A stretch of DNA of 64,000 nt, taken from the NCBI GenBank assembly GCA_050739575.1, contig JBOIBN010000001.1, positions 26,608-90,607 of the forward strand, read 5' to 3'. Below the pieces are notes generated by a model. The model had not been told where the DNA came from and did no database searches. It was given only the letters and a program-made list of their open reading frames with translations. Below, piece by piece: positions 1 through 19,544 of this stretch. This DNA is from Gammaproteobacteria bacterium (GTDB taxonomy: Bacteria > Pseudomonadota > Gammaproteobacteria > JAKDMP01). The stretch's first letter is position 1. Each line of letters opens with the position of its first letter. The position numbers were made by a program, and so were the translations under genes.

Positions 1-31
1 GTATATGTGAAAGTGGCTACCGCATGAATAC

Positions 32-59
32 TTGACTTCTGTGAAACATGTTCTATACT
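32..59 (+). promoter_or_regulatory. Candidate sigma70 early promoter (Pe-like): TTGACT, 16-bp spacer, TATACT, immediately upstream of ner.
   Basis: Near-consensus -35 box at 32-37 and -10 box at 54-59. A second in-frame ATG at 79 is compatible with this promoter. Confidence 0.4.
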
Positions 60-66
60 TTGCCGC

Positions 67-360
67 ATGAGTAGCCGCATGAGTATTCGAGCCCTTCCAA
101 AAAAAGCCGGTCTTTTGGAGGACTGGCATCCGGCCGACATCGTGGCCGAGCTGCGCAAGGCGGGCTGGAGCCTACGCAAGTTGGCGATCCATCACGGCTA
201 TAAGGCACCGAGCACACTGAAGAACGCCATTGCCGCGCCGTGGCCGAAGGGCGAACGCCTGATCGCCGAAGCCATCGGCGTCAAGCCCCAGGACATCTGG
301 CCTTCGCGCTTTGCCGAAAGGGCGCGGCGTAAAGCCGAAGCCCAGCGGGAAGCCGCGTGA
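67..360 (+). CDS. ner: Ner-like DNA-binding protein (Mu Ner / Nlp family)
   Basis: The ORF segment DWHPADIVAELRKAGWSLRKLA...WPKGERLIAEAIGVKPQDIWPSRF is collinear with Mu Ner (DWHRADVIAGLKKRKLSLSAL...HWPKGEQIIANALETKPEVIWPSRY). The start may be the second ATG at 79. Confidence 0.85.
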   Translation: MSSRMSIRALPKKAGLLEDWHPADIVAELRKAGWSLRKLAIHHGYKAPSTLKNAIAAPWPKGERLIAEAIGVKPQDIWPSRFAERARRKAEAQREAA

Positions 361-459
361 GCGCCACGGCATCACGGATCGGAATGTTATCACCGCCGCG
401 GCCGTCCCGAAAGGGCACGGCCGCTTTTTATTTGGAACCCCTTATATAAAGGAAGGGCA

Positions 460-945
460 ATGCCGGGGAAGAATTGGAAACGGGCGCGGGCGCGCTCGAT
501 TTGCCACGGGATAGAACTGTGTCTGGACTTCGCCAGGGAGAAAGGGAACCTTTCCGTCGATCGCGTCGCGGATTTGATGGGGCTTCCGAATAAGTGGGTA
601 CTTTATAAATGGATGGAGTCGGGGCGCATGCCGGCGAACCTAATTCCGCCCTTCGAGCATGCCTGCGGGGCCTCGTTCGTGACCGATTATCTCGGCGGGG
701 TGATCGGCGGCGTGCTGATCAAGATGCCGACGGGCCGAAAGTCGGGACCGGAAGAGGTCGCCGCCCTTCAGCACTCATTCGCCGATGCGATCCAGCAGCT
801 CGCACAGTTCTACGACGGCAAGCGCGGCGCCGAAGAGACGATTGACGCCCTGACCTCGGCGCTCCGCGGCGCGGCCTGGCATCGGGAGAACGTCGCGAAG
901 CTCGCGACGCCGGAGCTGGCGCTCTTCGATGAGGCGCAGACATGA
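460..945 (+). CDS. Phage early-region protein with a central HTH, possibly a CII-like regulator
   Basis: Strong Shine-Dalgarno (AAGGAAGG) 5 nt upstream of the ATG. There is an ATGA overlap with the transposase start. The HTH-like segment VDRVADLMGLPNKWVLYKW weakly resembles lambda CII. Mu itself has no gene at this position. Confidence 0.5.
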   Translation: MPGKNWKRARARSICHGIELCLDFAREKGNLSVDRVADLMGLPNKWVLYKWMESGRMPANLIPPFEHACGASFVTDYLGGVIGGVLIKMPTGRKSGPEEVAALQHSFADAIQQLAQFYDGKRGAEETIDALTSALRGAAWHRENVAKLATPELALFDEAQT

Positions 946-2960
946 AGGAATGGTTTTCGGCGGCAGAATTGGCTGGATTGCCGGGGATGCCAATGACACC
1001 TCGCGGAGTGAACATGGTTGGTGATCGCGGTGGCATACAACGGCGAAAAAAGACGTTTGGAAAGGGATGGGAATATAGTTTTTTGACTTTGCCGGGCGAG
1101 ACGCAGGCGGCTGCGCTCAAGAAGTTCGGGGCTGCGATGCTGCCGGCGCCGGCGGATGGTGACGACGTACCGGCGGCGACGCCGACGAGATCGTCCCGGC
1201 GCGCCGAATTCAAATACGATCCGGAGGCGCTGTGGGCGTGGGCGGCAACGCGGCCGCAGCGGGCGCGCGATCGCGGGGTCGAGCGCGCGGGGCTGCTGAT
1301 GCAGGCGATGCGGCTCGCTGAGGCCGGGCAGGCGTTCGGCGTTGCGATGGAGACGGTCGCGCGGGCGAACGGGATCCCGGTCGTGAATTTGCGGAACTGG
1401 TTTTATGGCGTGAACGGGCATCCCGGCGCGCGGCTGTATGCGCGCAACGACTGGGCCGCGATGCTGGTGCCTTCGTACTGTGGCCGCACGGCGCGGGCCG
1501 AGTGCAGCGAGGAGGCGTGGGACGTCTTCAAGGCGCTGTATCTGCGGCGGCGGGCGCCGAATTGTTCGACCTGCTACGAGCAGGTCGCGAAGATCGCCGC
1601 CGCCAAGGGCTGGGACTGGCCGTCGCAGGCGACGATCCTGCGCCGGGTGCGGGAGCTGCCGCGCGCGGTGCGGGTGCTGGCGCGCGAGGGCGCGGAAGCG
1701 CTCGACCTTTTGATGCCGGCGATGACGCGCGACCGCAGCGGCTTCCACGCGATGGAGGCGGTAAACGGCGACGGCATCGAGTGGAAGCGCTATTGCGTGT
1801 GGCCGGACGGCGAAGTGGCGCGGCCGCACACGTGGATTACGCAGGATCTGTACAGCAACAAGCTGCTCGCGTGGCGCACGGATCGCAGCGAGAACAAGGG
1901 CATGTTCCGGCTCGCCTATGGCGACCTGGTCGAGCGCTTCGGAATCCCGATCTTCTATTACATCGACAACACGATGGCGGCGGCGAGCAAGTGGATGACC
2001 GGCGGCACGCCAAACCGGTACCGCTGGCCGATCAAGGACGAAGACCCGATCGGAATCATGCCGCAGATGGGCACCGAAGTGCGTTTCGTGCAGCCCGGTC
2101 ACGGGCAATCCAAACCGATCGAGCGCGCGAACCGGGAGCTGCGCGAGCGGGTGGATGTTCATCCGCAGTTCGAGGGACGCGGGACGCCGGGACGGCCGAT
2201 CCCGATTGCCGACTTCGTGACGTTGATGGAGGCCGAATTCGCGGCCTATAACGCGAAAAGCGCGCGCCGGGTGCCGAACGCGGCCGGGCGCAGCTTCGAC
2301 GAGACCTTCAACGCGAGTTATTCGAGCGCGCCGATCCGCAAAGCGACCGCCGAGCAGCGGCGCCTGTGGCTGCTGGCCGCCGAGCGCATCTATGCTCAAC
2401 GCGACAACGGCTCGATCGTGCTCGGGCGCGGCCCGCACGGGGAGAACCGTTATTGGAGTGAAGCGCTGGCGCCTTATGCCGGGCAGCATGTCGTAGTGCG
2501 CTTCGATCCGCAGGATTTCAGTCGGCCGGTGCACGTGTACGAGGTCGGCGGCCAGTACGTCGGCGAAGCGCCGTGCACCTGGCAGGCCGGTTTCGCCGAT
2601 GCCGAGTCCGCACAGACCTATCACCGCGAGCGTTCCCGCTGGAAGCGCGACAGAAGGAACGCGCTGGAATCCGAGAAGCGCATGACGACGGCCGCGGCGG
2701 CTTCGCTGATCGAGACACCGCAGCCGGAAGAGCCGCCGGAATCGAAGGTGGTGCAGTTGATGCGCCCGCGGCTGCAACGCGCGGCCAATCACGATGTTGA
2801 CCATGACGACGAGGACGGCGAAAACGAACAGCACTTCATGGCCGCAATGGCGAAATTAACGGGTCCAGTGCGCGATCTGGAGGCCGAACGCGAGGAACGC
2901 GAGCGACATTTCGGGGCCGCCGTCGCGCAGATGAAGGTGCCGGGGAGTTCGTTGTTGTGA
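942..2960 (+). CDS. MuA-family DDE transposase (transposase A)
   Basis: The N-terminus WFSAAELAGLPGMP is like Mu-like A proteins. The catalytic region HAMEAVNGDGI, RFGIPIFYYIDNTMAAASKWMTGGTPNRYRW and VVVRFDPQDF aligns to MuA [44 protein letters not shown] and VVVRFDPQQL. Confidence 0.9.
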   Translation: MKEWFSAAELAGLPGMPMTPRGVNMVGDRGGIQRRKKTFGKGWEYSFLTLPGETQAAALKKFGAAMLPAPADGDDVPAATPTRSSRRAEFKYDPEALWAWAATRPQRARDRGVERAGLLMQAMRLAEAGQAFGVAMETVARANGIPVVNLRNWFYGVNGHPGARLYARNDWAAMLVPSYCGRTARAECSEEAWDVFKALYLRRRAPNCSTCYEQVAKIAAAKGWDWPSQATILRRVRELPRAVRVLAREGAEALDLLMPAMTRDRSGFHAMEAVNGDGIEWKRYCVWPDGEVARPHTWITQDLYSNKLLAWRTDRSENKGMFRLAYGDLVERFGIPIFYYIDNTMAAASKWMTGGTPNRYRWPIKDEDPIGIMPQMGTEVRFVQPGHGQSKPIERANRELRERVDVHPQFEGRGTPGRPIPIADFVTLMEAEFAAYNAKSARRVPNAAGRSFDETFNASYSSAPIRKATAEQRRLWLLAAERIYAQRDNGSIVLGRGPHGENRYWSEALAPYAGQHVVVRFDPQDFSRPVHVYEVGGQYVGEAPCTWQAGFADAESAQTYHRERSRWKRDRRNALESEKRMTTAAAASLIETPQPEEPPESKVVQLMRPRLQRAANHDVDHDDEDGENEQHFMAAMAKLTGPVRDLEAEREERERHFGAAVAQMKVPGSSLL

Positions 2961-3265
2961 AGCATAAAACTGATGACGAACTCTACCGCACCATGCAACT
3001 GATGTTCGAGGAGAAGCGCGCCAACTTCAGGTGCACGCCGACAGATGGGAAATGGTGGCGCGATTACCTGCGCGGCCTGGATCAAGCAACGAGACGAAGG
3101 CTGATCTGGATCAATAGAGCCCATATGAACAGTGCTATCTACGGCGCGCTGGCCGGCATTCTCGATGAGATCGATGAACAACGCGGGCAAAAAGCGGCGC
3201 CTACGAAGCCGGATTTGCGCCTGATTATCAGTAATCCAGAGGATTCGCCGCCGAGCGGCGGGTAA
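2957..3265 (+). CDS. Hypothetical phage early protein (102 aa)
   Basis: The GTG start overlaps the transposase stop (GTGA). I recognise no family. It is positioned between A and the B-like gene. Confidence 0.45.
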   Translation: MKHKTDDELYRTMQLMFEEKRANFRCTPTDGKWWRDYLRGLDQATRRRLIWINRAHMNSAIYGALAGILDEIDEQRGQKAAPTKPDLRLIISNPEDSPPSGG

Positions 3266-3332
3266 AGGTGCGCCGGGCTGACACCCGGCGCGAGTTGGGC
3301 CGCGAGGCCCGGTTGGACACAGGAGATTTTAC

Positions 3333-3932
3333 ATGGCTGTAACGGCTATTTCAATGCGGTCCATCTCGGATCGTAATTTGCGCGGCGAGGTTGCCGCGCT
3401 TATTGCGAGCGAGAACGGCCCGTCACAGGCGACCTTGTCGCGCGAGGCGGGACTGTCGCCGAGCGCGCTCAACCAGTGGCTGCGGGAACGCTACGCGGGC
3501 GATAACCTCGCGGTCGAGATCAAGCTTTCGCAGTATCTCGAAACCTATTACGCCCGGCTCGCGCGCGAGAAGGCGTTGCCGCAGGCTCCGGGCTGGATTG
3601 CGACGCCGACCTCGGAGCGGATCCTGCAGACGCTCGGCTATGCGCAGATCGCGGGCGACATCGTGATCGTGTACGGCGGCGCGCTCGACGAGCAGGACTG
3701 GGGCATTGACGGCGCCGGCGCGCCGGTCGCCATACGCTCGGAGAATCTGTATTCGGGCGCCATCGATGCGCTGAAGGTCGGCTTGTGGGGCCTGCGCTGG
3801 GAGCAGCGCTTCACGCTCGATGCCGTTGATCCGGCGACGCTCGCGCCGTTCCTCACTTTCCACGAAGATACCGACATGGCGCCGGCCGACGGCGTGATCG
3901 ACATGTCGGAAACCGACGAACTGCAGCAATAG
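3333..3932 (+). CDS. MuB-like protein, N-terminal HTH domain retained, Walker A degenerate (probable non-ATPase remnant)
   Basis: LNQWLRERYAGDNLAVEIKLSQYLE aligns to MuB ISSFINDKYNGDNERVSQMLQRWLE. The segment aligning to the MuB P-loop IAVVCGNPGVGKTEAA reads IVIVYGGALDEQDWGI. The protein is 199 aa against ~312 aa in MuB. Confidence 0.55.
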   Translation: MAVTAISMRSISDRNLRGEVAALIASENGPSQATLSREAGLSPSALNQWLRERYAGDNLAVEIKLSQYLETYYARLAREKALPQAPGWIATPTSERILQTLGYAQIAGDIVIVYGGALDEQDWGIDGAGAPVAIRSENLYSGAIDALKVGLWGLRWEQRFTLDAVDPATLAPFLTFHEDTDMAPADGVIDMSETDELQQ

Positions 3933-3940
3933 GAGTCACC

Positions 3941-4162
3941 GTGAACGAATTCAACATCAAGCCGGCAAGCGATGCAGTGAGGGTGCGCGATCCGCGCACC
4001 GGCCGCGCACTCGCCAAGGACGGCGAGACCAAGCCGCGCAACAGCTACTGGCTGCGGCGCCTGCGCGACTGCGACGTGGTCGAAGTCGCCGCGTCCACTT
4101 CATCCGCATCCAAGGCCGCTCCCGTCAAGGCAGACGCCGAACAGAAAGGAGGCAAGTCGTGA
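3941..4162 (+). CDS. Small conserved protein found upstream of the sheath gene in Mu-like tails (DUF2635-like)
   Basis: GGAG lies 7 nt upstream of the GTG start. The motif VRDPRTGRAL...YWLRRLRDCDVV is typical of the small gene preceding the sheath gene in Mu-like prophages. Its stop overlaps the sheath start. Confidence 0.5.
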   Translation: MNEFNIKPASDAVRVRDPRTGRALAKDGETKPRNSYWLRRLRDCDVVEVAASTSSASKAAPVKADAEQKGGKS

Positions 4163-5625
4163 GCATCGAGTTCAATACCATTCCGGGCGACGTCCGCGTT
4201 CCCGGCGTCTATGTGGAGTTCGACTCCAGTCAGGCGCAGACCGGCCTCGCCGACGACAGCTATACGATCCTGGTGATCGGGCAGCGGCTTGCGAGCGGCA
4301 CCGTCGCGGCCGGCGTCCCGACTGCGGTGCAGAGCGCGAGTCAGGCGCAGCAATTCTTCGGAGCGGGCTCGATGCTCGCCAACATGCTCACGGCGCTCAA
4401 GGTCGCGAACCCGTACACCGCGTGCGTCGCGATCGCACTCGATGACGACGAGGCGGCCGTCGCAGCGACGGTGACGGCCACCATTACCGGGCCGGCGACG
4501 GGCGCCGGAACGCTGGCAATGTACATCGCCGGTATCGCCGTGAAAATCGCAGTGGCTTCCGGCGACAGCACGACGACGACGGCAACTGCGCTCGCGGCGG
4601 CCATCAATGCGAACGGAAACCTTCCCTTCACGGCCGGCGCCGCCGCCGGCGTGGTCATGCTCACGGCGCGCAACAAGGGCGTCGCCGCGAACTACATTGA
4701 CGTGCGCCTGAACTATTACGCGGGCGACGTGACTCCGGCCGGCGTGGCGGTGGCGATTGCCGCCGGAACCGCGGGCACGACCAATCCGGACATCACGACC
4801 GCGATCGCGGCAATGGCGGACGACTGGTACCAGGCGATCGCGATGCCCTATACCGATTCCGCGAACCTCGCGGCACTGGAGCTAGAGCTGATTTCGCGCT
4901 GGGGCGGCACGCGTCAGATCGACGGGATTGCCTATGCCGGCTACCGCGGAACAGCGAGCGCGACCGACACCTTCGGCGCCACGCAGAATTCGCCGTTCGT
5001 ATCGTGCATGGGCACTTCGATCTCGCCCACTCCGCCGTGGATCTGGGCCGCAGTCTACGCCGGCGTCGCGGCGGCATCGCTCGCGACCGATCCGGCGCGC
5101 CCGCTGCAGACGCTCACGCTTCCCGGCATATTGCCGCCCGCACGGGCCGATCGCTTCACCTTCGACGAGAAGAATCTCCATCTGCACAGCGGCATCGCGA
5201 CTTTCAACACAGCGCCGGACGGCACCGTGCAGATCCAACGCGAAGTCTCGACTTATCAGTTCAACGCCAATAAAATCGCCGACACTTCATTCCTGGACAT
5301 CACCACACCGGCGACGCTCTCCTACTTCCGCTTCACCACACGCGCGGCCATGACGGCAAAGTTCCCGCGCGAGAAACTCGCGAGCGACGGCACGACCTAT
5401 CCTCCGGGCGCGAACGTGGTGACGCCTTCGGTTCTGCGCGCGGAGCGCATCTCGATCGCCCAGGACTGGGTGAATGCCGGGCTGATGGAAGACCTCGCGC
5501 AATTCAAACAGGATCTGGTAATCCAGATCAATGCGACCGATCCCAACCGGGCCGATTCGCTCAGCTCGCCGAATCTCGTCAATCAGCTCCGCATCATGGC
5601 GGACCTGGTCGAATTCATCCTTTAA
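4159..5625 (+). CDS. Contractile tail sheath protein (Mu gpL-like)
   Basis: The N-terminus MSIEFNTIPGDVRVPGVYVEFDSS...ILVIGQRLASG is collinear with Mu L [24 protein letters not shown]...GLFIGQKLSGG. Confidence 0.9.
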   Translation: MSIEFNTIPGDVRVPGVYVEFDSSQAQTGLADDSYTILVIGQRLASGTVAAGVPTAVQSASQAQQFFGAGSMLANMLTALKVANPYTACVAIALDDDEAAVAATVTATITGPATGAGTLAMYIAGIAVKIAVASGDSTTTTATALAAAINANGNLPFTAGAAAGVVMLTARNKGVAANYIDVRLNYYAGDVTPAGVAVAIAAGTAGTTNPDITTAIAAMADDWYQAIAMPYTDSANLAALELELISRWGGTRQIDGIAYAGYRGTASATDTFGATQNSPFVSCMGTSISPTPPWIWAAVYAGVAAASLATDPARPLQTLTLPGILPPARADRFTFDEKNLHLHSGIATFNTAPDGTVQIQREVSTYQFNANKIADTSFLDITTPATLSYFRFTTRAAMTAKFPREKLASDGTTYPPGANVVTPSVLRAERISIAQDWVNAGLMEDLAQFKQDLVIQINATDPNRADSLSSPNLVNQLRIMADLVEFIL

Positions 5626-5637
5626 GGAGGCTAGACC

Positions 5638-6000
5638 GTGGCAAACAAATTATTCGGACGCGCAGTGGTGGCCTACGACGGCAACCAACTGCGCGTGGAC
5701 AAGGGCGCGAAGCTCAACACCGGCGGCATCAAGCGCAACACCGTGGTCGGGATGCAGGTCGAGGGCTTCGCCGAGGAGGCCGTCGAGGCATCCGTCGAAG
5801 TCTCCATCTTCATGGATGCGAGCACCGACCTCGACGCGCTCAACGCCGCGGAGGACGTGACCGTGCTGTTCACCGCCGACAGCGGCCAGCAGTACGTGCT
5901 CTCGCATGCGTGGCTCGCCGAACCGACCGAGGCCACGGCCGCCACCGACGGCGGCAAGGTGCCGCTGAAGTTCTGCTCGGCCAGCGCGGAGAAACTCTGA
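5638..6000 (+). CDS. Tail tube protein (Mu gpM-like)
   Basis: A 120-aa ORF directly after the sheath gene, with a GGAGG Shine-Dalgarno. Size and position match Mu M. Confidence 0.75.
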   Translation: MANKLFGRAVVAYDGNQLRVDKGAKLNTGGIKRNTVVGMQVEGFAEEAVEASVEVSIFMDASTDLDALNAAEDVTVLFTADSGQQYVLSHAWLAEPTEATAATDGGKVPLKFCSASAEKL

Positions 6001-6299
6001 TGGCGAACGTGAAGGGAACGCTCAAGCACGGGCTCAAGGTCGGCGACAAACTGCACAAGGATTACGAGCTGCGCGAGTCCACCACGCAGGACATGTTCGA
6101 TGCGGAGGCGGATGCGCCGAGCGATCGGCGCCTGGCGTTCCAGGGCGCGCTGCTCGCGCGCCAGATCGTCAAGCTCGGCGACCTCGGCGGCCCGCTCGAC
6201 TTCTCGCTGATCGGCAAGCTGCATCCGGAAGACTTCACGGATCTGATCGCCGATGCCGCCGCAGCGGATGCAGCGGGAAAAAACGCACCGGCGAGCTGA
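6001..6299 (+). CDS. Tail assembly chaperone (Mu gp41-like, lambda G-like)
   Basis: A 99-aa acidic ORF between the tube and tape measure genes. The ATG at 6001 overlaps the tube stop. It ends just after a G GGA AAA AAC slippery run. Confidence 0.7.
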
Positions 6300-6445
6300 A
6301 GGGCCTGCATCAAAAAACCCTTTTGCTCGCGCGCAAAACCGGCTGGACCCGAAGCGAGATTCTTGGGCTGTCACGTTCGGAGTTCGATTTTTATGTAGAG
6401 ACGCTGATCGAGTGGAGCACAGAGGAAGACGAATACGATGAGTGA
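6001..6445 (+). CDS. Predicted -1 frameshift fusion product of the tail assembly chaperone (G-T-like)
   Basis: Slippery heptamers G GGA AAA and A AAA AAC are in the zero frame at 6275-6284. The -1 frame runs open for 55 codons (KKRTGELKGLHQKTLLLARKTGWTRSEILGLSRSEFDFYVETLIEWSTEEDEYDE) and ends at 6445, overlapping the tape measure start. Confidence 0.55.
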
Positions 6446-8408
6446 CAGCACCCTCGATCTCGCCATGCGCATCACCGCAATAGATGTCTTCAGCGGGGTG
6501 CTGAATCGCTTCCGCACGCAGATCATGGGCGCGGGGGCGCAGTCCAAAGAATTGATGCGCGACTACGACCTCGCGCTTTCCAACATCCGCAAGGGGTTCA
6601 ACGGGCTCGCAGCCGCCAAGTACGGCTTCGACAAAATGAAGCCCGCGCTCGACAACGCTGCGAAGCTCCAGCAGGCGACGCTTGCCTTCTCGCAGATCCT
6701 GCAGGGCGCCCATCCGAACGCGAAGAAGCTCGCCGATCAAATGCAGCGCGTCAGCGACAATGCCATCAGCGTGGCGCGGCACATGAAATACAGCGCCATC
6801 GAGGTCATGGACGTCTCGCGGCTGCTCTACAAGTCCGGCATTCCGCTCGCGGCCATTCTCGACCGCGTGGGCAAAAGCGGCAAGACCATTTACGGCCTCG
6901 CCTACTACACCGAGGCGCTCGCCGAGACGCAGGGCACGACGCCGCAAGAGACGGCGGCGCAGATCGGCAACGTCGGCCATGCGTTCCGGTTGAAGCCGAA
7001 CCAATATGCGCGCGCCATCAACCTGATCACGCAGGCGCAACCGGTCGCATCCGGTTCGCTCACCGAGCTGTTCCACAATCTGGCCCAGTCGGGCGCCATT
7101 ACCAAATACCTCAGCCATACGAGCCTGCTCAGCCTGCTGGCGGGACTTAAAACGGTAGCGCCGCTTGGTGAAGAGGGGGGTACCGATTTCGCGACCATGC
7201 TGGAGACCTTCGGATCCATGCGGGTGCGCGGCAAAAAATATCTGCAAAAATATGGACTGAATTTTTACGATAAACAGGGCCAATTCCTGGGCCTCGATAA
7301 ATCGTTAGACGTGCTGCGTAAAACCATTGCGGCGCGGCACTGGACGCCAGAGCAGATAAACAAGATTTTGGGACCCATCTTCGGGCAACAGGGACTCAAG
7401 GCCATCGCGCTGATGACCGCGCCGAACGCGCCGGGAGTGAAAAGTTACCAGGAAATCAAAAAATCGATCACGGAGCAGGCCAACCTCAGTCAGCAACGGA
7501 TCGAGTGGGAGAAGGGTTACCTCGCGCAGCTTTCCGAGCTGAAGACTACGGGGCAAACGTTGAGCGCGGTGCTCGCAACGCCGGTCCTGAGCCCGACCGT
7601 CGGCGTGATGAAAACGCTGAACGACTGGATGGGCGATTTCACGCTCGCCGCCCATCATCACAAGTCCATCGGCATCGCCGCGACGGCCGCAGGGGGCGCC
7701 GCGCTTGCCGCCGCCGTCGGCTATTCGGCCTGGAATCTGATCAAAACGATAAAGCCCGGCAGCCACGTACTGCGCAGCCTGCTCGGCAAAGGCGGGGGCT
7801 TGGCCGCCCGCATCGGCGAAGGCAAGCTTATCCAAAAAGTCGCCGGGGTGCCGTCGGTCTTCGTGGTGAATATGCCCTCCGGTGGGCTTCCGGCGCCGGC
7901 CGGAGGCATCCCCCCGGGCGGCTCACGGATTTTGCTGCCGCCATCATTCGGCGAGAGAGGCGCGGCGATCGCGGCAGGCAGCATTGCCGCGCGCCTGAAG
8001 GGCTTCTTGCTGGCGCCGGCGTTGGCATCCATCAGCTCGGCAAAAGGATTGAAGGCGACCGCGGGCGCGGCCGGGAAACTCGTCGGTGCATTGGGACTCG
8101 CCGCCAGCGCCGGTTGGGCATTAGGCAAGGCGCTCGACCGCATCCCCGCCGTGCACAGTTTCTTCGACAAGGAGTTCCAGAACAGTCTGGCGAATGCAGT
8201 GATCACGGCTGCTTCCGGCGCGAACAAGAATGCGGTCGAATTGACCCGCGGCGCGCAACTGGAGCGCGCATGGCGCACGCAGCACAAGGACTTCAAGGGC
8301 GCGATCAAGATCACGATCGATAGCAAGGGCAAAGCGCATGTGACCGAGCTGCGCAGTAGCACACCGCGCGTGAACCTGAGCGTCGGCCATGCGATGAGCA
8401 CGCCGTGA
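6438..8408 (+). CDS. Tail tape measure protein
   Basis: 656 aa, helical and Gly/Ala-rich, located after the chaperone and its frameshift extension. Confidence 0.85.
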   Translation: MSDSTLDLAMRITAIDVFSGVLNRFRTQIMGAGAQSKELMRDYDLALSNIRKGFNGLAAAKYGFDKMKPALDNAAKLQQATLAFSQILQGAHPNAKKLADQMQRVSDNAISVARHMKYSAIEVMDVSRLLYKSGIPLAAILDRVGKSGKTIYGLAYYTEALAETQGTTPQETAAQIGNVGHAFRLKPNQYARAINLITQAQPVASGSLTELFHNLAQSGAITKYLSHTSLLSLLAGLKTVAPLGEEGGTDFATMLETFGSMRVRGKKYLQKYGLNFYDKQGQFLGLDKSLDVLRKTIAARHWTPEQINKILGPIFGQQGLKAIALMTAPNAPGVKSYQEIKKSITEQANLSQQRIEWEKGYLAQLSELKTTGQTLSAVLATPVLSPTVGVMKTLNDWMGDFTLAAHHHKSIGIAATAAGGAALAAAVGYSAWNLIKTIKPGSHVLRSLLGKGGGLAARIGEGKLIQKVAGVPSVFVVNMPSGGLPAPAGGIPPGGSRILLPPSFGERGAAIAAGSIAARLKGFLLAPALASISSAKGLKATAGAAGKLVGALGLAASAGWALGKALDRIPAVHSFFDKEFQNSLANAVITAASGANKNAVELTRGAQLERAWRTQHKDFKGAIKITIDSKGKAHVTELRSSTPRVNLSVGHAMSTP

Positions 8409-8410
8409 TG

Positions 8411-8749
8411 TCAGGGCGTTACGAACATCGCGCCGGTCCAGTAGGAATAGACCTGGCCTTTCGGTCTGATCTTGACGAGACGGCCGTCCGTGGTCATGTC
8501 TTCGATATAGACCGCCTCTCCCGACGTGAGCGCAACGCATTGGCCCGCGTTGACGCCTTCGGCAAGAAGCTCTTCGGCGGTCTGCTTGTCGCCCTCCGCC
8601 GCTATGGTTGCGATCTTGTCGAAAAGCGCCTGAGACTGGCATCCGGCGACGTTCGCGTTGATATGGCTCGGTCCTGTCGGAGCGGCTTGCGCGGACGTGG
8701 CCGAAGCCAGCGCCGCCAGCGCGGCTATGAAAAAGGCTTTACGCATCAT
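8411..8749 (-). CDS. Small secreted protein (signal peptide, 2 Cys), antisense moron inside the tail operon
   Basis: It exactly fills the 380-bp gap between the tape measure and N genes on the opposite strand. The Shine-Dalgarno is GAGGGGGA. The signal peptide is MMRKAFFIAALAALASATSAQA. GC3 is high, like that of its neighbours. Confidence 0.6.
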   Translation of the reverse strand: MMRKAFFIAALAALASATSAQAAPTGPSHINANVAGCQSQALFDKIATIAAEGDKQTAEELLAEGVNAGQCVALTSGEAVYIEDMTTDGRLVKIRPKGQVYSYWTGAMFVTP

Positions 8750-8787: not shown

Positions 8788-10029
8788 GTGAGCTGGCGCG
8801 ATCAAATGCTGCCGGGCTCCTTCCGCGGCGCGCCGTTCCTGATCAAGGTGGCGCGCACGGGCGTCGGGCGGCGCACGGAGCTGCATCAGTATCCGCTGCG
8901 CGATACGCCGTGGGCGGAGGATCTTGGGCGCCACGCGCGGAGCTTCACGGTGGAATGCTTCGTGCTCGGGGCGGACTACATGAGCCAGCGCAATGCGCTG
9001 ATGGATGCGCTCGAACAGGGCGGCGCGGGCACATTAGTGCATCCGTATCTGGGGACGAAGAGCGTCGTCGTTAACGGCAGCGCGGACATCACCGAGGACA
9101 CCGCCGAGGGCGGGATGGCGCGCTTCTCGATTCCGTTCGCTGAAAGCGGCCAGAAGCTCGAGCCGGCGGCGGCGACCGATACGGCCGGTGCGGTCGCCGA
9201 TCAGGCGTCAGCGGGCAATGCGGCGCTTGCGACGCAGTTCAGCGACGACTTCGCGACCGAAGGGTATCCGCAGTGGGTGCAGGACGCGGCGAGCGCGAAC
9301 ACGAACGAGTTGACGGACACGCTCGATTCGCTGCGGAGTTCCATTCCCGGCATTCCCGATTCCGTGGTGGCGTTCGATTCGCAGCTCGCGGAATTCAGCC
9401 AATCGCTCGCGAGCCTGATTCGCACGCCGTACAACCTGGCGGCGTCTGTGGTGAGCTTGATCGCGGGCCTCGGCACGATCGCCGAGCAGCCGCTGGATGC
9501 GGTGAATCTCTATTCCACGCTGTCGACCTGGCAACCCTCCGGACCGCTGCCGGCGGCGACGACGCCGGCGCGTGCGCAGGCGGCAGCGAACCAGCAGGCG
9601 CTGACGGATCTTGTGCAGCGCACGGCGATCATGCAGCAGGGCGCGGCTGCGTCGCGGGTGCCGGCGCAGAGCGGCACGGATACATCGGTGGACGGCACGC
9701 CGCTCGCGGGTTACGACACGGCCGATGTGGCGCTTGCCGTGCGCGATGCGATTACCGGTTCGATCGATACGCAGCAGCTCACGGCGCCCGACGCGGTATT
9801 CGATGCGCTGACGGATCTGCGCGCGGCCGTGGTGACCGACTTCGATGCGCGCGCGGGAGCGCTCCCTTCGCTGGTGACTTTCACGCCGGCGACGGATCTG
9901 CCGGCGACCGTGATCGCCTGGCGTCTGTACGCGGATGCGAGCCGCGATGCGGAGATCGTGCAGCGCAACGCCGTGGTCTATCCCGGAGCGGTGCCCGGCG
10001 GCGCGCCGCTGGAGGTGGCCAGTGCCTGA
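8788..10029 (+). CDS. DNA circulation protein (Mu gpN-like)
   Basis: 413 aa with a GTG start and GGAG Shine-Dalgarno. It sits at the Mu N position, after the tape measure and before P. Confidence 0.8.
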   Translation: MSWRDQMLPGSFRGAPFLIKVARTGVGRRTELHQYPLRDTPWAEDLGRHARSFTVECFVLGADYMSQRNALMDALEQGGAGTLVHPYLGTKSVVVNGSADITEDTAEGGMARFSIPFAESGQKLEPAAATDTAGAVADQASAGNAALATQFSDDFATEGYPQWVQDAASANTNELTDTLDSLRSSIPGIPDSVVAFDSQLAEFSQSLASLIRTPYNLAASVVSLIAGLGTIAEQPLDAVNLYSTLSTWQPSGPLPAATTPARAQAAANQQALTDLVQRTAIMQQGAAASRVPAQSGTDTSVDGTPLAGYDTADVALAVRDAITGSIDTQQLTAPDAVFDALTDLRAAVVTDFDARAGALPSLVTFTPATDLPATVIAWRLYADASRDAEIVQRNAVVYPGAVPGGAPLEVASA

Positions 10030-11062
10030 GCTGCAGCTCAAGGTCGGCGGCCAGATCTACAGCGGCTGGGAAGAGGTGCGCGTCTCGCGCGGCATAGACC
10101 AGCTTGCCGGCTCCTTCGAACTGAAACTCTCGGAGCGTTTCGACGGCACGAGCACACTGCGGCCGATCCGCTACGGCCAGAGCGCGACGGTGCTCGCCGA
10201 CGGCGAGACGGTGATGACCGGCTTCATCGATACGGTCGCGCCGGACTACGACGACACCACGCACTTCCTGAACGTGTCCGGGCGCGATGCGACCGGCGAC
10301 CTGGTGGACTGTGCGGCGATCCACAAGTCGAGCGTGTGGACGAATCAATCGCTCGCGCAGATCGCCTTCGACCTGGTGCAGCCGTTCAAGGCCGGCCTCG
10401 AGGTGATCGCCGACGTCGGCGCGCCCTTCCCGACCTGGCGGATCGAGCCGGGCGAAACCGTATTCGAAAATTTGGACCGCGCCGCGCGCTACCGCGGCGT
10501 GCTGCTGACTTCCGACGGCCTCGGCAATCTCGTGATCACGCAGCCGGGCGCGGACGTCGCACCGGCGGCGCTGGTGCTCGGCCAGAACATTCTCCGCGCC
10601 CAGGGCCATTCCAGTTCGCTCGAACGCTTCGCCGATTACATCGTGCGCGCGCAGCAGGCGGGCACCGATACGGTCTATGGCACGACTGCCGCTTCGCCGA
10701 GCGGCGAGGCGCTCGATTCCGCCGTCGGCCGCTACCGCCCGACCGTAATCGTGGCCGAGGATATGGCCGACCAGGCCGCGTGCCAGACGCGCGCCAACTG
10801 GCAGCGTACGGTCGCCGCGGCGCGTTCGCAGCAGATCGTCTATACCGTGAGCACCTGGCGTGCGGACGGACGCCTGTGGCAACCGAATGCGTTGGTGCCG
10901 GTGACCGATCCCTTCATGGGCATAGACGAGCGGCGCCTGATCTCGCGCGTTGACTTCGTGCTCGATTCGCAGGGCTCGCGCACCGAGCTGACGGTGGTGC
11001 CGCGTCACGCCTACGATCCGCAGCACCTGCCCGATCCGCCGGCGGGCGGAGGGTTGTTCTGA
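10022..11062 (+). CDS. Mu gpP-like tail/baseplate protein (phage late control D family)
   Basis: GRDATGDLVDCAAIH and RYRGVLLTSDGLGNLV align to Mu P GRDKTADLIDCAAVY and RARGVLMTSNAAGELV. The GTG start at 10022 overlaps the N stop (GTGCCTGA). Confidence 0.75.
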   Translation: MPELQLKVGGQIYSGWEEVRVSRGIDQLAGSFELKLSERFDGTSTLRPIRYGQSATVLADGETVMTGFIDTVAPDYDDTTHFLNVSGRDATGDLVDCAAIHKSSVWTNQSLAQIAFDLVQPFKAGLEVIADVGAPFPTWRIEPGETVFENLDRAARYRGVLLTSDGLGNLVITQPGADVAPAALVLGQNILRAQGHSSSLERFADYIVRAQQAGTDTVYGTTAASPSGEALDSAVGRYRPTVIVAEDMADQAACQTRANWQRTVAAARSQQIVYTVSTWRADGRLWQPNALVPVTDPFMGIDERRLISRVDFVLDSQGSRTELTVVPRHAYDPQHLPDPPAGGGLF

Positions 11063-11628
11063 TGGAACTCGCACGCGTGCTCGCGCGGCGCATCCGCATG
11101 ATCGCGGGCCGCGCCGTGATCAATCTCGCGAACGACGCGCTCAAGGTGCAGAGCGTGCAGATCTCCGCACTCGATACCGAAGTGCTGCAGGCGCAGCGCT
11201 TCCAGGAGTACGGCTTTACGTCGGTGCCGCTCGCCGGCGCCGAAGGCATCTTCCTCGCGATCGCCGGCGTGCGCGGCCACACGATCGTCATCGCGAGCGA
11301 CGACGGGCGCTATCGGCGGAAAAATCTGCAACCCGGCGAAGTCGCGCTCTACACCGACGAGGGCGATTACATTCAGCTCGCGCGCGGCAAGAAGATTCAA
11401 GTCGTGAGCGGCGGCGAGGTGGACGTGACCGGACCGAACGTGAACGTGATGGCCACGAGCAAGATCACCTGCGACACGCCGGAGCTGCACTGCACGGGCA
11501 AAATTACCGCCGCCGACGAGATCAGCTCCGACGTCGATTGCATTTCCGCCGGCGTGTCGGGCAAGGGCCATTTGACGACCGGCGTGCAGAGCGGCGGCGA
11601 CTTGTCCGGCCCTCCGGAGGCGAGCTGA
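11062..11628 (+). CDS. Baseplate assembly protein V / central spike (Mu gp45-like)
   Basis: 188-aa ORF at the position of Mu gp45, following P and preceding gp46/gp47. Confidence 0.7.
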   Translation: MELARVLARRIRMIAGRAVINLANDALKVQSVQISALDTEVLQAQRFQEYGFTSVPLAGAEGIFLAIAGVRGHTIVIASDDGRYRRKNLQPGEVALYTDEGDYIQLARGKKIQVVSGGEVDVTGPNVNVMATSKITCDTPELHCTGKITAADEISSDVDCISAGVSGKGHLTTGVQSGGDLSGPPEAS

Positions 11629-12074
11629 TGGACGCCGCATTGATCTGGAACCCGAACGGCTATGCCGACATTGCGCTTTCCGGCGGCGATCTCGCGCACG
11701 ACGACGGACTCGAAACCGCGGTGATCCTGTCGCTGTTCTGCGATGCGCGCGCCGATGCGGACGACAGCCTCGACGCCGGCGCGGATCCGCGCGGCTACTG
11801 GGGCGACAGCTTCGCAGCCATTGCGGGCGACGTGACCGGCTCGAAGCTGTGGCTGATCGTGCGCCAAAAGCAGCTTGCCGACGTCGCCAACCGCGCCCAG
11901 GAATATGCGGCGGCCGCGCTCGCATGGCTGGTCGAGGACGGCATCGCGGCGACGGTGAACGTGATCGCCGAGTGGATTGCACAGGGCACGCTCGCGCTGT
12001 CGATCGCGATCGCCAAGCCCGGATCGAACGACGTCTTTCAACGCCGTTATCAGTACGTTTGGAGCGCCCTTTAA
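11628..12074 (+). CDS. Baseplate protein (Mu gp46 / P2 W-like)
   Basis: 148 aa. The start overlaps the gp45 stop (TGATG). It is the gp46-position ORF immediately before gp47. Confidence 0.7.
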   Translation: MDAALIWNPNGYADIALSGGDLAHDDGLETAVILSLFCDARADADDSLDAGADPRGYWGDSFAAIAGDVTGSKLWLIVRQKQLADVANRAQEYAAAALAWLVEDGIAATVNVIAEWIAQGTLALSIAIAKPGSNDVFQRRYQYVWSAL

Positions 12075-13156
12075 TGCCGTTTTCACGCCCCACGCTCGCT
12101 ACGCTGATCGACCGCATCGCCGGCGACATCGAATCGCGCCTGCCCGGCTCCGACGCGCGCCTGCGCCGCAACCTGCTGACGATCCTCGGCCGCGCCGAGG
12201 CCGGTGCGACACACGGGCTCTACGGGCACCAGGAATGGATCTCGCTGCAGGTCATCATCGATACCGCCGAAAACGACTGGCTGGAGCGCTGGGCGGCGAT
12301 CTGGACGGTTGGGCGCAAGGGCGCCGGTGCCGCGCAGGGCAACCTTTTACTCACCGGCACGAACGGCGCGATCCTGCCTGCCGGCAGCAGCTATACGCGC
12401 AGCGACGGCGCGCTCTACACCACCGATGCCGATGCCACCATCGTCGCCGGTACCGCGACTGTAGCCGTGACCGCATCGCTTGCCGGCGTCGCCGGCGACA
12501 CCGATGCGAATTCCACGCTGACGCTGGTGTCGTCCGTGACCGGCATCGATGCGGCGGCGACGGTGGATGCGGACGGCATCGAGGGCGGCGCGGACATCGA
12601 GGACGACGATTCGCTGCGCGTGCGCCTGCTCGATCGCATCGGCGCTCCGCCGACCGGCGGCAGCGATCCCGATTACGTGGCGTGGGCGGAAGAAGTCGCC
12701 GGCGTCACCCGCGCCTGGGTGTATCCGAAAGAGCAAGGCCCCGGCACGGTGGTGGTGCGCTTCGTGACCGACGACGCGCCGGGCGGCTTGATTCCCGACG
12801 ATGCGACCGTGCAGGCGGTCGCCGCCAGCATCGTCGCCAAGCGCACGGTGACGGCGGACGTGTTCGTGTTCGCGCCGATCGCCGATCCGCTCGATCTGAC
12901 CATTCAACTGGTTCCCGACACTATCGCGGTGCGCGCGGCCGTCACCGCCGAGATTGCCGACATGATTCTGCGCGAGGCCATCCCGGCCGGGACGCTCAAT
13001 GGCAGTGTGCAGGTCGGCGAGATCATCCGCAGCCACATTGACGAGGCGATCTCCATCGCTGACGGTGAGACCGATCACACGTTGCTGGTGCCGACCGCGA
13101 ACGTGCAGCCGGCCATCGGCCACATCGTGACGCTGGGAACGATCACATGGGCCTGA
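12074..13156 (+). CDS. Baseplate J-like protein (Mu gp47)
   Basis: 360-aa ORF whose length and position (after gp46, before gp48) match Mu gp47. Confidence 0.8.
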   Translation: MPFSRPTLATLIDRIAGDIESRLPGSDARLRRNLLTILGRAEAGATHGLYGHQEWISLQVIIDTAENDWLERWAAIWTVGRKGAGAAQGNLLLTGTNGAILPAGSSYTRSDGALYTTDADATIVAGTATVAVTASLAGVAGDTDANSTLTLVSSVTGIDAAATVDADGIEGGADIEDDDSLRVRLLDRIGAPPTGGSDPDYVAWAEEVAGVTRAWVYPKEQGPGTVVVRFVTDDAPGGLIPDDATVQAVAASIVAKRTVTADVFVFAPIADPLDLTIQLVPDTIAVRAAVTAEIADMILREAIPAGTLNGSVQVGEIIRSHIDEAISIADGETDHTLLVPTANVQPAIGHIVTLGTITWA

Positions 13157-15669: not shown

Positions 15670-15687
15670 ACATCATAGGAGATCATC

Positions 15688-16218
15688 GTGGACTATCCAG
15701 TATCTGATGACACCGTCGGCCTGGTGGCCGGCAAATTCAGCGACGGCGATCCGACCAGCGGCATCCCCGCATCGCGCTGGCCCTCGGAAACGGCGGACGC
15801 CATCATGGACGAGCTGATCGCCGTTATCGTGCAGGGCGGCCTCACGCCCGCCGAAGCGACGCTCACGCAGGTGCGCGACGCGATTCTCGCGATCGTCACC
15901 GCGGCACTGGGTACCGCAATTCCCAAGGACAAGTTCAATGCGACGGCCGATCCGGTCGTGACCAACGACAGCAGTCAGGGCTACAGCGAAGGCTCGCGCT
16001 GGTTCAACACGACGACGCCGGACGTGTTCGTGTGCATCAATCCTGCTGTCGGTGCCGCGGTGTGGCTGAAGTCCACGCTCGAACTCGCGGATCTCGCGAA
16101 CTTCGCCGTTAAAAATGCCGACAACGAATTCAGCGCGGGCCAGAGCGTGACCGGCAATCTCACGATTGACGGCAACATCTACTCGACCGGCGTGGTCCAG
16201 GCCGGTGTGACGCTGTGA
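15688..16218 (+). CDS. Putative tail fibre-associated protein
   Basis: 176-aa ORF directly after the gp48-fibre fusion gene. The sequence NLTIDGNIYSTGVVQ is fibre-like. GGAG precedes the GTG start. Confidence 0.4.
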   Translation: MDYPVSDDTVGLVAGKFSDGDPTSGIPASRWPSETADAIMDELIAVIVQGGLTPAEATLTQVRDAILAIVTAALGTAIPKDKFNATADPVVTNDSSQGYSEGSRWFNTTTPDVFVCINPAVGAAVWLKSTLELADLANFAVKNADNEFSAGQSVTGNLTIDGNIYSTGVVQAGVTL

Positions 16219-17198: not shown

Positions 17199-17213
17199 AT
17201 CAGGAGAACCTCG

Positions 17214-17654
17214 ATGCTCGCCTTTAACAAGTTCAACGCCTTCGTACTTGCCGTCGCGACGAAAAAGATCGATCTCAATGCAGACACGCTCAAGATCATG
17301 CTCACGGATACGGCGTCGGTGGTGACCAATTCCGTCAAGACCGACATCACCGAAATATCCGCCGGCAACGGCTACAGCGCCGGCGGCGCTGCCGTCGGAA
17401 GCAATTCCGCCTCGCAGACCTCCGGCACCATGAAGGTGGTCGGCGACGCCGTGACCTTCACCGCCAGCGGCGGCGCGATCGCGCAGTTCCGCTACCTGGT
17501 GCTTTACGACGATACCGCCGCGAGCAAGGATCTGATCGGTTGGTGGGACAACGGCAGTGAAGTCAATCTCGGCGACGGCTCGAGCTTCACGCTCGGCGAC
17601 GATTTCAGCGGGGATAACTGGGATGCCACGACGCCGCTCTTTACGCTGGCGTAA
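17214..17654 (+). CDS. Hypothetical small beta-rich tail-region protein
   Basis: 146 aa, with an AGGAGA Shine-Dalgarno 6 nt upstream. Confidence 0.4.
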   Translation: MLAFNKFNAFVLAVATKKIDLNADTLKIMLTDTASVVTNSVKTDITEISAGNGYSAGGAAVGSNSASQTSGTMKVVGDAVTFTASGGAIAQFRYLVLYDDTAASKDLIGWWDNGSEVNLGDGSSFTLGDDFSGDNWDATTPLFTLA

Positions 17655-19214: not shown

Positions 19215-19516
19215 ACGTGGCCACCATCTACATCGGCCGAGACAATCCGTTCAAATTGCAGGCGTCGGAAGACGGCGCCTCGATCGACCTGAGCGGCGTC
19301 ACCAAGATGGCGGTACGCGTCGGTGCAGCCGATACCGATTCCGATGCGAATCCGATACTCTTCGACTGGAGCGCCGGCGACGGCGTCGTCAGCATAATCG
19401 TCGGGCTCGTCCCCCAATTGAGCGCAGGCGCGAAACGGCTGCGTCTCATCGCCTATTCAGACGCATGGCCCGATGGGATCGTGCTGGGCGATCTTCCCGT
19501 CGATGTCACCGCGTGA
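19211..19516 (+). CDS. Hypothetical protein (101 aa)
   Basis: The ORF overlaps the upstream stop. The start codon is uncertain (TTG or GTG). Confidence 0.3.
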   Translation: MNVATIYIGRDNPFKLQASEDGASIDLSGVTKMAVRVGAADTDSDANPILFDWSAGDGVVSIIVGLVPQLSAGAKRLRLIAYSDAWPDGIVLGDLPVDVTA

Positions 19517-19544
19517 TTGGCCTCATCAACTTTGGAGCATCCCC

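What the first reader, a model, noticed from the sequence alone, without database searches (positions are those of the whole stretch)
32..4200. Tail genes are fused to the early operon and would be read from the Pe-like promoter
From the candidate promoter at 32-59, every gene through the sheath gene is on the same strand. Adjacent genes are tightly packed, with either 4-nt start/stop overlaps (ATGA at 942, GTGA at 2957 and at 4159) or a gap of only 8 nt at 3932/3941, and there is no recognisable terminator. In Mu the late tail genes need Mor and C, which are absent here. Tail expression would therefore be repressor-controlled, as for an SOS-inducible tailocin.
Basis: inference. Interest (0 to 1): 0.55.

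Follow-up and report, generated by a model that had tools for sequence, protein, structure and literature searches.

The report
Mu-like prophage with its middle deleted
A Mu-type transposable prophage has lost roughly 17-20 kb from its middle, joining half of its B gene in frame to half of its tail-terminator gene, so the tail genes now sit directly behind the early genes; this looks like ordinary prophage decay, not a purpose-built SOS-controlled tailocin.

Summary
The layout is real. A near-consensus promoter (32-59) is followed on one strand by ner, a CII-like gene, MuA, orf102, a 199-aa ORF, DUF2635 and the sheath gene, with the stated ATGA/GTGA overlaps and the 8-nt gap.

Two points were missed. 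First, the "B-like gene" (3333-3932) is a chimera. Residues 1-117 are the N-terminus of MuB, ending just before the Walker A motif. Residues about 116-199 are the C-terminal half of Mu gp37, the tail terminator. Seven relatives keep a full B, 12-18 early genes, Mor, lysis genes, head genes and gp37 in between. One in-frame deletion of about 17-20 kb therefore explains the fusion and the absence of Mor/C, lysis and head genes. Second, there is a textbook intrinsic terminator (398-433) directly after ner.

Read-through from the early promoter into the tail genes is plausible, because no other promoter or terminator was found, but it is untested. The tailocin reading is weak:
- the tail terminator is truncated;
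- there is no lysis cassette;
- the repressor has no S24 domain and there is no LexA box;
- the transposase and both element ends are retained;
- the junction occurs in a single MAG lineage.

Verdict: a defective Mu-like prophage, of low interest.

The parts
20..85 (+). Three exact copies of the 11-mer CCGCATGARTA (20-30, 63-73, 75-85) bracketing the promoter; candidate operator sites for the repressor or Ner
   Evidence: these are the only exact copies in 64 kb.: CCGCATGA also follows the -10 hexamer in relative L013.
32..59 (+). Pe-like sigma-70 promoter, TTGACT-16-TATACT
   Evidence: 10/12 match.: a near-consensus promoter lies at the same position in L006, L010, L011, L013 and L014.
67..360 (+). 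ner-like gene (HTH_35); the public annotation starts it at 79
   Evidence: PF13693, 3.7e-25; phrog_769
398..433 (+). Intrinsic terminator: 11-bp G+C stem with one bulge and a GAAA loop, followed by TTTTTATTT
   Evidence: hairpin -22.6 kcal/mol. It is the only intergenic hairpin plus T-run on the + strand between the promoter and the tail-fibre genes.
460..945 (+). CII-like early gene (161 aa), conserved between ner and A in relatives
   Evidence: phrog_101, 5e-22; 48% identity to the L010 159-aa gene
942..2960 (+). MuA-type DDE transposase, full length
   Evidence: four Mu transposase domains; closest relatives 58-64% identical
2957..3265 (+). orf102, unknown function, lower GC3 (0.66); probable moron
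   Evidence: no family match; GC by codon position; unrelated to the L011 100-aa ORF and to Mor
3269..3312 (+). Two adjacent G+C-rich hairpins without a U-tract, ancestral to the A-B intergenic region
3333..3683 (+). B' portion: MuB N-terminal 117 residues, ending ...VYGGA immediately before the lost Walker A motif (GLGKT)
   Evidence: phrog_296; alignment A1; L010 B residues 1-117 match 3333-3683
3678..3686 (+). Deletion junction, in frame; the breakpoint is ambiguous by a few bases
   Evidence: the B match ends at 3683 and the gp37 match starts at 3678. Also.
3684..3932 (+). gp37' portion: C-terminal ~83 residues of a Mu gp37-family tail terminator (positions ~97-180 of 180)
   Evidence: phrog_490, profile positions 105-187 of 190; A2; P0008 passes PF08873; role of gp37 from PMC11915804
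3941..4162 (+). DUF2635 (Mu gp38-like)
4159..5625 (+). Tail sheath
   Evidence: (56% identity to the L008 sheath)
5638..6000 (+). Tail tube
6000..6445 (+). gp41-type tail assembly chaperone (6000-6299) plus a probable -1 frameshift extension reaching the tape-measure start
   Evidence: ORF 6323-6445 lies in the -1 frame; inference
6438..8408 (+). Tape measure protein
8411..8749 (-). Opposite-strand moron: 112-aa protein with a signal peptide and a strong Shine-Dalgarno sequence, inside the tail module
8788..13156 (+). Baseplate genes: gp43 (8788-10029), gp44 (10022-11062), gp45 (11062-11628), gp46 (11628-12074), gp47 (12074-13156)
13147..17654 (+). gp48 fused to a fibre/lectin C-terminus (13147-15669), then fibre-like and unknown ORFs (15688-16218, 16215-17198, 17214-17654)
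17664..20678 (+). Right-end cargo: 516-aa unknown protein and 401-aa GH5 endoglucanase-like protein
20895..20940 (-). Right end of the element, with two copies of TCACTTGGTTTGCGAA (20932-20917 and 20910-20895), inverted relative to TGGTTTGCGAA / TCACTTGGTTTGTGAA at the left end (L001 3904-3914 and 4057-4072)
20941..20950 (+). Host direct repeat ACCTCCGATT, also at L001 3881-3890 next to the left end; the insertion site is a hairpin between the thiolase and liuB genes

Best explanation
This is a defective Mu-like transposable prophage of about 21.7 kb, inserted between the thiolase and liuB genes of a leucine-catabolism cluster in an uncultured gammaproteobacterium.

One internal deletion of about 17-20 kb runs from codon ~117 of the B gene to codon ~97-100 of the gp37 tail-terminator gene. 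It removed the B ATPase domain, the accessory early genes, Mor, the lysis genes, all head and packaging genes, and the N-terminal half of the tail terminator. It left an in-frame B'::gp37' chimera at 3333-3932 (shown).

As a by-product, the tail module lost its native late promoter or promoters and now lies in the early transcription unit (shown at the sequence level).

When the divergently encoded HTH repressor is inactivated, transcripts from the promoter at 32-59 that pass the intrinsic terminator behind ner would make the CII-like protein and the transposase. Finding no further terminator, they would run on into the tail genes, probably at low, Ner-limited levels (inferred).

Because the terminator protein is truncated and there is no lysis cassette, the most likely outcome is incomplete or unstable tail structures that are not released. 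That is prophage decay, not a working tailocin (inferred).
For: Chimera:
- PHROG matches split at residue 116: MuB-type 24-116, gp37-type 116-198.
- Homologues are either 314-322-aa AAA_22+MuB_C proteins covering the first half or 180-aa gp37 proteins covering the second half.
- The alignments place the break after YGGA, in front of the Walker A motif.
- tblastn gives B residues 1-117 = 3333-3683 and gp37 residues 97-180 = 3678-3929.
- P0008 passes Pfam Phage_Mu_Gp37.

Intact architecture in relatives. Relatives L006, L010, L011, L014, L015 and L016 show the order A, B (317-325 aa), small early genes, GemA, HI_1489_N, Mor, lysis genes, gp27, terminase. The short contigs L012/L013 end soon after a full-length B of 320 aa. 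L008 shows gp27 ... capsid, gp36, Phage_tail_S, gp37, DUF2635, sheath, tube, gp41.

None of the missing genes is elsewhere in the 64-kb window.

Both element ends are present, with inverted A-site-like repeats and a flanking direct repeat. 21.7 kb plus 17-20 kb gives 39-41 kb, a normal size for a Mu-like phage.

Transcription. The promoter and its operator-like repeats are supported. No other + strand promoter-like site lies before 5248. There is no terminator-like site between 434 and the tail-fibre genes in an intergenic position.

gp37 is the hexameric cap of the tube and sheath in Mu (PMC11915804).
Against: - All remaining tail genes are intact ORFs, and the fusion is in frame. Selection for a tail product could leave the same pattern, as could a recent deletion.
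- The chimera keeps the gp37 C-terminus, which in Mu contacts the last sheath ring, so some capping activity cannot be excluded.
- The efficiency of the terminator at 398-433 is unknown. If it is strong, little transcription reaches the tail genes.
- No transcript, protein or read-coverage data were available.
- No close intact relative exists (best A identity is 64%), so the breakpoints are mapped at protein level, not nucleotide level.
Confidence: 0.75

Rival explanations
1. One reading: a domesticated, repressor-controlled tailocin. The deletion was selected because it places a Mu-type tail module under the early promoter, so that stress-induced loss of the repressor yields bactericidal tail particles.
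For: The tail genes from DUF2635 to the fibres are intact and contiguous with the early operon. Head, packaging and Mor genes are gone. The promoter is flanked by operator-like repeats and faces a repressor gene. Tailocins built from Mu-type tails are known (PMC4542187).
Against: - The tail terminator gene lacks its N-terminal ~96 residues.
- A tail terminator or collar protein is reported in all siphophages, myophages and contractile injection systems (PMC11915804).
- No holin or endolysin was found.
- The repressor has no S24 peptidase domain, and there is no LexA box.
- The transposase and both ends are retained, whereas known tailocins have lost their replication functions.
- The junction is known from one protein cluster of identical sequences only.
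- An intrinsic terminator follows ner.
Confidence: 0.1
2. A silent remnant. The same deletion origin applies, but the tail genes are effectively not transcribed. The terminator behind ner, Ner autorepression and Rho-dependent polarity over 17 kb stop early transcripts, and the native activator-dependent late promoters are lost.
For: There is a strong canonical terminator at 398-433. No other promoter-like site lies upstream of the tail genes. Mor is absent. In Mu, late promoters lack -35 elements and need the C protein (PMC2582627).
Against: The transposase gene lies behind the same terminator with no promoter of its own. In the intact ancestor a useful fraction of transcripts must therefore have passed it. 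Tight translational coupling (overlaps and an 8-nt gap) disfavours Rho entry.
Confidence: 0.2
3. An assembly artefact: the metagenome assembler joined the early and tail regions of an intact prophage, and no deletion exists in any cell.
For: The sequence comes from metagenome-assembled genomes. No read data could be examined.
Against: The identical junction is on two separately deposited contigs (42 kb and 99 kb), and the protein is also recorded from a Logan assembly. The B and gp37 genes share no repeat that would mislead an assembler. The join is in frame, and both flanks are in native gene order. The element is bounded by host genes on both sides.
Confidence: 0.04

Closest known systems
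Bacteriophage Mu and Mu-like transposable prophages (early operon Pe-ner-A-B; regulatory cascade Mor then C then late promoters)
   Same: A divergent repressor and early promoter; a Ner-type HTH_35 gene; a four-domain MuA transposase; the MuB N-terminus; terminal inverted repeats with repeated motifs; and a Mu-type tail module in Mu gene order from gp37 to gp48.
   Different: It lacks the B ATPase domain, all accessory early genes, Mor/C, lysis and head genes, and half of gp37. It has an extra CII-like gene between ner and A, which its closest relatives share, and a terminator behind ner. The flanking direct repeat is 10 bp rather than Mu's 5 bp (own knowledge for the Mu value).
Laboratory mini-Mu / Mud deletion derivatives, and naturally defective Mu-like prophages
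   Same: Both ends, the repressor region and the A gene are kept, and the internal genes are deleted. The element cannot form virions.
   Different: The deletion here is natural. It also disables B and keeps the whole tail module, creating a B'::gp37' fusion protein. The comparison with mini-Mu rests on my own knowledge and was not tested with the tools.
R-type syringacin and other tailocins derived from phages with Mu-type tails (PMC4542187)
   Same: A Mu-type contractile tail gene set without capsid or packaging genes.
   Different: Those tailocins have lost their replication functions. This element keeps its transposase, transposon ends and phage immunity region, has a truncated terminator gene and no recognisable lysis genes, and is known from one lineage only. 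By my own knowledge, not checked here, those tailocins also occupy a conserved chromosomal locus.
Phage lambda tR1 terminator downstream of cro (own knowledge)
   Same: An intrinsic terminator placed directly after the first small regulator gene of the early rightward operon, in front of the replication or transposition genes.
   Different: No N-like antiterminator or nut site was identified here, and the terminator is not obviously conserved in relatives L010 and L013.

Membership tests
Mu-like transposable phage (functional prophage) | MuA-type DDE transposase with Mu DNA-binding domains | tested here: met
   PF02914, PF09039, PF09299 and PF02316, all above the curated cut-offs
Mu-like transposable phage (functional prophage) | MuB AAA+ ATPase (AAA_22 plus Phage-MuB_C) | tested here: not met
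   only residues 1-117 remain; the Walker A motif and everything after it are absent
Mu-like transposable phage (functional prophage) | Divergent repressor / ner control region with an early promoter | tested here: met
Mu-like transposable phage (functional prophage) | Inverted terminal repeats with several transposase-binding motifs, plus a target-site duplication | tested here: inconclusive
   the motif TGGTTTGCGAA is repeated at both ends in inverted orientation, and a 10-bp flanking direct repeat is present. The exact termini and a 5-bp duplication could not be fixed.
Mu-like transposable phage (functional prophage) | Mor/C-family activator for middle and late transcription | tested here: not met
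   no PF08765; no tblastn match to six Mor proteins from relatives
Mu-like transposable phage (functional prophage) | Head, packaging and lysis genes | tested here: not met
   no match in 64 kb to terminase, portal, F, protease, capsid, gp36, Phage_tail_S, holins or endolysins of relatives
R-type tailocin (phage tail-like bacteriocin) | Complete contractile tail set including a tail terminator or collar protein | tested here: not met
   Sheath, tube, chaperone, tape measure and baseplate genes are present, but gp37 is reduced to its C-terminal ~83 residues fused to B'.
R-type tailocin (phage tail-like bacteriocin) | Loss of capsid, packaging and replication or transposition functions | tested here: not met
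   Capsid and packaging genes are lost, but a full-length transposase and both ends are retained.
R-type tailocin (phage tail-like bacteriocin) | Own lysis cassette for release | tested here: not met
   no holin or peptidoglycan hydrolase. The only glycosidase is GH5 endoglucanase-like.
R-type tailocin (phage tail-like bacteriocin) | Stress/SOS-responsive regulator (LexA-like cleavable repressor or a PrtR/PrtN-type pair) | tested here: not met
   The repressor has an HTH domain only and no Peptidase_S24. There is no LexA box in the control region. The repressor of relative L016 does carry S24.
R-type tailocin (phage tail-like bacteriocin) | Conservation at a fixed locus across related strains, and demonstrated killing | not testable with these tools
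Intrinsic (Rho-independent) terminator | Stable G+C-rich hairpin immediately followed by a U-tract, in an intergenic position | tested here: met
   398-424 (-22.6 kcal/mol) plus TTTTTATTT at 425-433, starting 38 nt after the ner stop codon. Termination efficiency was not tested.

The most novel reading that the evidence does not exclude
This could be a snapshot of one-step tailocin genesis. A single internal deletion in a transposable phage discards the head, lysis and late-activator genes and, in the same event, captures the repressor-controlled early promoter for the tail genes. The B'::gp37' chimera would still cap the tail through its retained C-terminal sheath-binding part, and release would depend on lysis functions encoded elsewhere in the genome.
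Probability: 0.08. Interest if true: 0.6.

Novelty: new member of a known kind. Interest (0 to 1): 0.2.

Why it matters
As it stands, this is a clean, precisely mapped example of prophage decay. It warns annotators that a short "B-like" gene next to tail genes can be a deletion chimera. It would matter more if the element were shown to make particles. It would then illustrate how a single deletion solves the regulatory problem of tailocin domestication, namely that late genes normally need a phage activator, by promoter capture. The conserved double hairpin in front of B and the terminator behind ner may be of interest for the control of the A:B ratio in this clade of Mu-like phages.

Tried and rejected
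- Close intact relatives for nucleotide-level breakpoint mapping. Scans of viral contigs with A and with the sheath, GTDB genomes with A and JGI metagenomes with the chimera gave only distant relatives or none. The best A identity anywhere is 64%.
- Pfam on the chimera, and on its C-terminal part alone, gave nothing usable. PHROGs and homologue alignment were needed instead.
- Solved structures for gp37 by sequence: nothing.
- Rfam on the whole element: only one sub-threshold chance hit.
- orf102 as a hidden Mor/C, or as an equivalent of the L011 100-aa ORF: no similarity.
- A second promoter between the terminator and the CII-like gene: by eye, only poor -35 candidates lie upstream of TATAAA at 445-450, and the scan finds none. 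Rejected.
- The terminator behind ner as a conserved clade feature: not evident in L010 or L013.
- The + strand ORF 8405-8791 as a tail gene: rejected in favour of the opposite-strand ORF, which has a signal peptide, a Shine-Dalgarno sequence and higher GC3.
- Relocation of the head or lysis genes elsewhere in the window: none found.
- Structure prediction of the chimera was considered and not run, because the alignment would be shallow and the result would not decide function.


Full report
OBSERVATION. ATGA lies at 942-945 and GTGA at 2957-2960 and 4159-4162. The stop at 3930-3932 is followed after 8 nt, which contain AGGAG, by GTG at 3941. All credible genes from 67 to 5625 are on the + strand. 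The promoter-like site at 32-59 (TTGACT-16-TATACT, 10/12) is one of four such hits in 18 kb, against 3.5 expected by chance. By score alone it is therefore unremarkable.

Its context makes it convincing. Three exact 11-mers, CCGCATGARTA, lie at 20-30, 63-73 and 75-85 and occur nowhere else in the 64 kb. The public contig that contains the window shows a divergent HTH repressor gene just upstream (L001; window position 1 = L001 4696; 13,932 shared bases are identical). Five related elements have a near-consensus promoter in the same position in front of their first early gene.

The 99-nt gap between ner (stop at 360) and the next gene (start at 460) contains an 11-bp G+C-rich stem with one bulge and a GAAA loop (398-424, -22.6 kcal/mol). 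It is followed directly by TTTTTATTT at 425-433. The pattern scanner missed it because of the bulge. It is the only intergenic hairpin plus T-run on the + strand between the promoter and the tail-fibre genes.

Their energy is not unusual for the composition (z = -1.1). 3933-3940 has no structure.

PHROG profiles split the 199-aa product of 3333-3932 at residue 116. Residues 24-116 match a MuB-type DNA transposition protein, and residues 116-198 match the last 83 positions of a 190-position family.

A search of 5.8 billion proteins returned only nine hits:
- the identical protein;
- six full-length MuB proteins (314-322 aa, AAA_22 + Phage-MuB_C) covering only the first half;
- two 180-aa proteins covering only the second half, one of which passes Pfam Phage_Mu_Gp37.

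The alignments put the break after ...IVIVYGGA, exactly where relatives continue with the Walker A residues GLGKT, and at about position 97-100 of gp37. tblastn gives B residues 1-117 = 3333-3683 and gp37 residues 97-180 = 3678-3929. The junction therefore lies at 3678-3686 and is in frame. In Mu, gp37 is the hexameric tail terminator that caps the tube and sheath, and its C-terminal beta-hairpin binds the last sheath ring (PMC11915804).

WHAT WAS LOST. Six related elements (transposase 40-60% identical) carry the same order downstream of A. That order is B (317-325 aa), 12-18 small early genes, GemA, HI_1489_N, Mor, lysis genes (SLT, GH108 or holin), DUF2730, gp27 and terminase. A seventh relative (64% identical; the short contigs L012/L013) also has a full-length B of 320 aa, but its contigs end soon after. 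A relative of the tail side shows gp27, terminase, portal, F, protease, capsid, gp36, Phage_tail_S, gp37, DUF2635, sheath, tube and gp41.

Both halves of the chimera therefore sit in their native neighbourhoods, and one deletion joins them. From these relatives the missing stretch is 7.2-9.7 kb (B codon 117 to gp27) plus about 10.0 kb (gp27 to gp37 codon 97), which is about 17-20 kb. None of the missing genes, including Mor and the lysis genes, is found anywhere in the 64-kb window.

THE ELEMENT AS A WHOLE. The left end lies about 800 nt before the window (L001 ~3891) and the right end at window ~20940. Both carry the motif TGGTTTGCGAA. There is one copy plus one variant on the left, and two inverted copies on the right at 20932-20917 and 20910-20895. 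The host sequence ACCTCCGATT flanks both ends.

The element is about 21.7 kb long. It is inserted in a hairpin between a thiolase gene and the methylcrotonyl-CoA carboxylase beta subunit gene of a leucine-catabolism cluster. Adding the deletion gives 39-41 kb, a normal size for a Mu-like phage.

The tail module appears otherwise complete: DUF2635, sheath, tube, gp41 chaperone, tape measure, gp43-gp47, gp48 fused to a fibre, and further fibre-like ORFs. It is interrupted by one opposite-strand gene for a small secreted protein at 8411-8749.

HOW IT MOST LIKELY WORKS. Shown: the deletion removed the native late regulators and whatever promoters lay upstream of gp37. In relative L008, gp37 and its neighbours are tightly packed with no room for a promoter. 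The deletion left the tail genes in line with ner, the CII-like gene, A, orf102 and B'. No other + strand promoter-like site lies before 5248, and no further intergenic terminator was found.

Inferred: on loss of the repressor, transcripts from 32-59 that pass the terminator behind ner continue through the fusion into the tail genes. The transposase gene lies behind the same terminator without a promoter of its own. In the ancestor the terminator must therefore have been leaky or overridden, so it is better seen as an attenuator than a block. In Mu, Ner shuts down the early promoter within minutes (established knowledge of Mu), so expression would be modest.

Only the join inside 3333-3932 is new.

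WHY NOT A TAILOCIN.
- The terminator protein has lost its N-terminal ~96 residues, the main body that forms the hexameric cap.
- There is no holin or peptidoglycan hydrolase. The only glycosidase is GH5 endoglucanase-like.
- The repressor is an HTH protein without an S24 peptidase domain, and no LexA box lies near the promoter. SOS control therefore has no sequence support, although the repressor of relative L016 does carry S24.
- A full-length transposase and both ends remain, so derepression would still cause transposase-mediated damage. Known Mu-tail-derived tailocins have lost such functions (PMC4542187).
- The junction is known from one cluster of identical proteins, on two deposited MAG contigs and in a Logan assembly. 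There are no diverged copies, so nothing indicates long-term retention.

The intactness of the other genes fits a recent deletion as well as it fits selection.

COMPARISON WITH WHAT IS KNOWN. The element works like, and descends from, a Mu-like transposable phage. It fails the tests for a functional member: B ATPase, Mor/C, head genes and lysis genes are all absent. It resembles a natural mini-Mu that happens to keep the tail genes. It fails four of the tailocin criteria that could be tested. [quoted passage not shown]

VERDICT. The 'fusion' is a deletion scar in a decaying prophage. This is a new member of a known kind, of low interest. There is a small residual chance (about 0.08) that it is an early stage of tailocin domestication by promoter capture.

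Noticed in passing
window 3269-3312; L010 11966-12016; L011 3523-3570; L012 4167-4213; L014 4196-4244; also L015, L016 and L006 A-B gaps: Two adjacent G+C-rich hairpins directly upstream of the B ribosome-binding site occur in every relative examined. The stems differ in sequence in the more distant elements, and there is one compensatory pair per stem among the close ones. There is no U-tract and no Rfam family. This may be a conserved RNA element (attenuator, processing site or stability element) setting the A:B ratio.
   Followed up: partly
window 8411-8749 (- strand): An opposite-strand gene inside the tail operon, between the tape-measure gene and gp43. It encodes a 112-aa protein with a classical signal peptide (MMRKAFFIAALAALASATSAQA) and has a strong Shine-Dalgarno sequence. 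No family match was found. It is probably a moron, and it makes the overlapping + strand ORF 8405-8791 (GC3 0.60) doubtful.
   Followed up: partly
window 54-69; L013 and L010 early promoters: The first ATG of ner (67) lies 7 nt after the -10 hexamer, and the geometry is similar in L013 and L010. The ner message may therefore be leaderless. The operator-like 11-mers overlap both candidate start codons (67 and 79).
   Followed up: no
L001 3870-3900 and window 20941-20980: The prophage is inserted in the loop of a perfect hairpin (GGAACCTC-N11-GAGGTTCC) between the thiolase and liuB genes of a leucine/isovalerate catabolism cluster. It is flanked by a 10-bp direct repeat, ACCTCCGATT, rather than the 5 bp expected for Mu. 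The insertion may separate liuB-E from upstream transcription.
   Followed up: partly
window 3354-3326 (- strand): A 10/12 promoter-like site (TTGAAA-17-TAAAAT) points antisense into orf102 and A. Its -10 hexamer coincides with the ATTTTACATG motif conserved at the B start codon in relatives.
   Followed up: no
window 19473-20678 and 17664-19214: The cargo at the right end comprises a GH5 endoglucanase-like protein (E = 4e-15 to solved endoglucanases) and a 516-aa protein with no detectable relatives in Pfam, PHROGs, NCBIfam or the PDB.
   Followed up: partly
window 13147-15669: The baseplate wedge protein gp48 (residues 1-196) is fused to a ~640-residue fibre-like region that ends in a concanavalin-A-like lectin domain. 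In Mu, gp48 and the fibre are separate proteins.
   Followed up: no
window 20787-20840 (+ strand): A hairpin (-20.7 kcal/mol) followed by TTTTAT lies about 100 nt inside the right end, a likely terminator closing the element's rightward transcription.
   Followed up: no
L006 13587-15376: The distant relative L006 carries a diversity-generating retroelement (bAvd plus reverse transcriptase, next to two Lcl_C-domain genes) in its early region.
   Followed up: no
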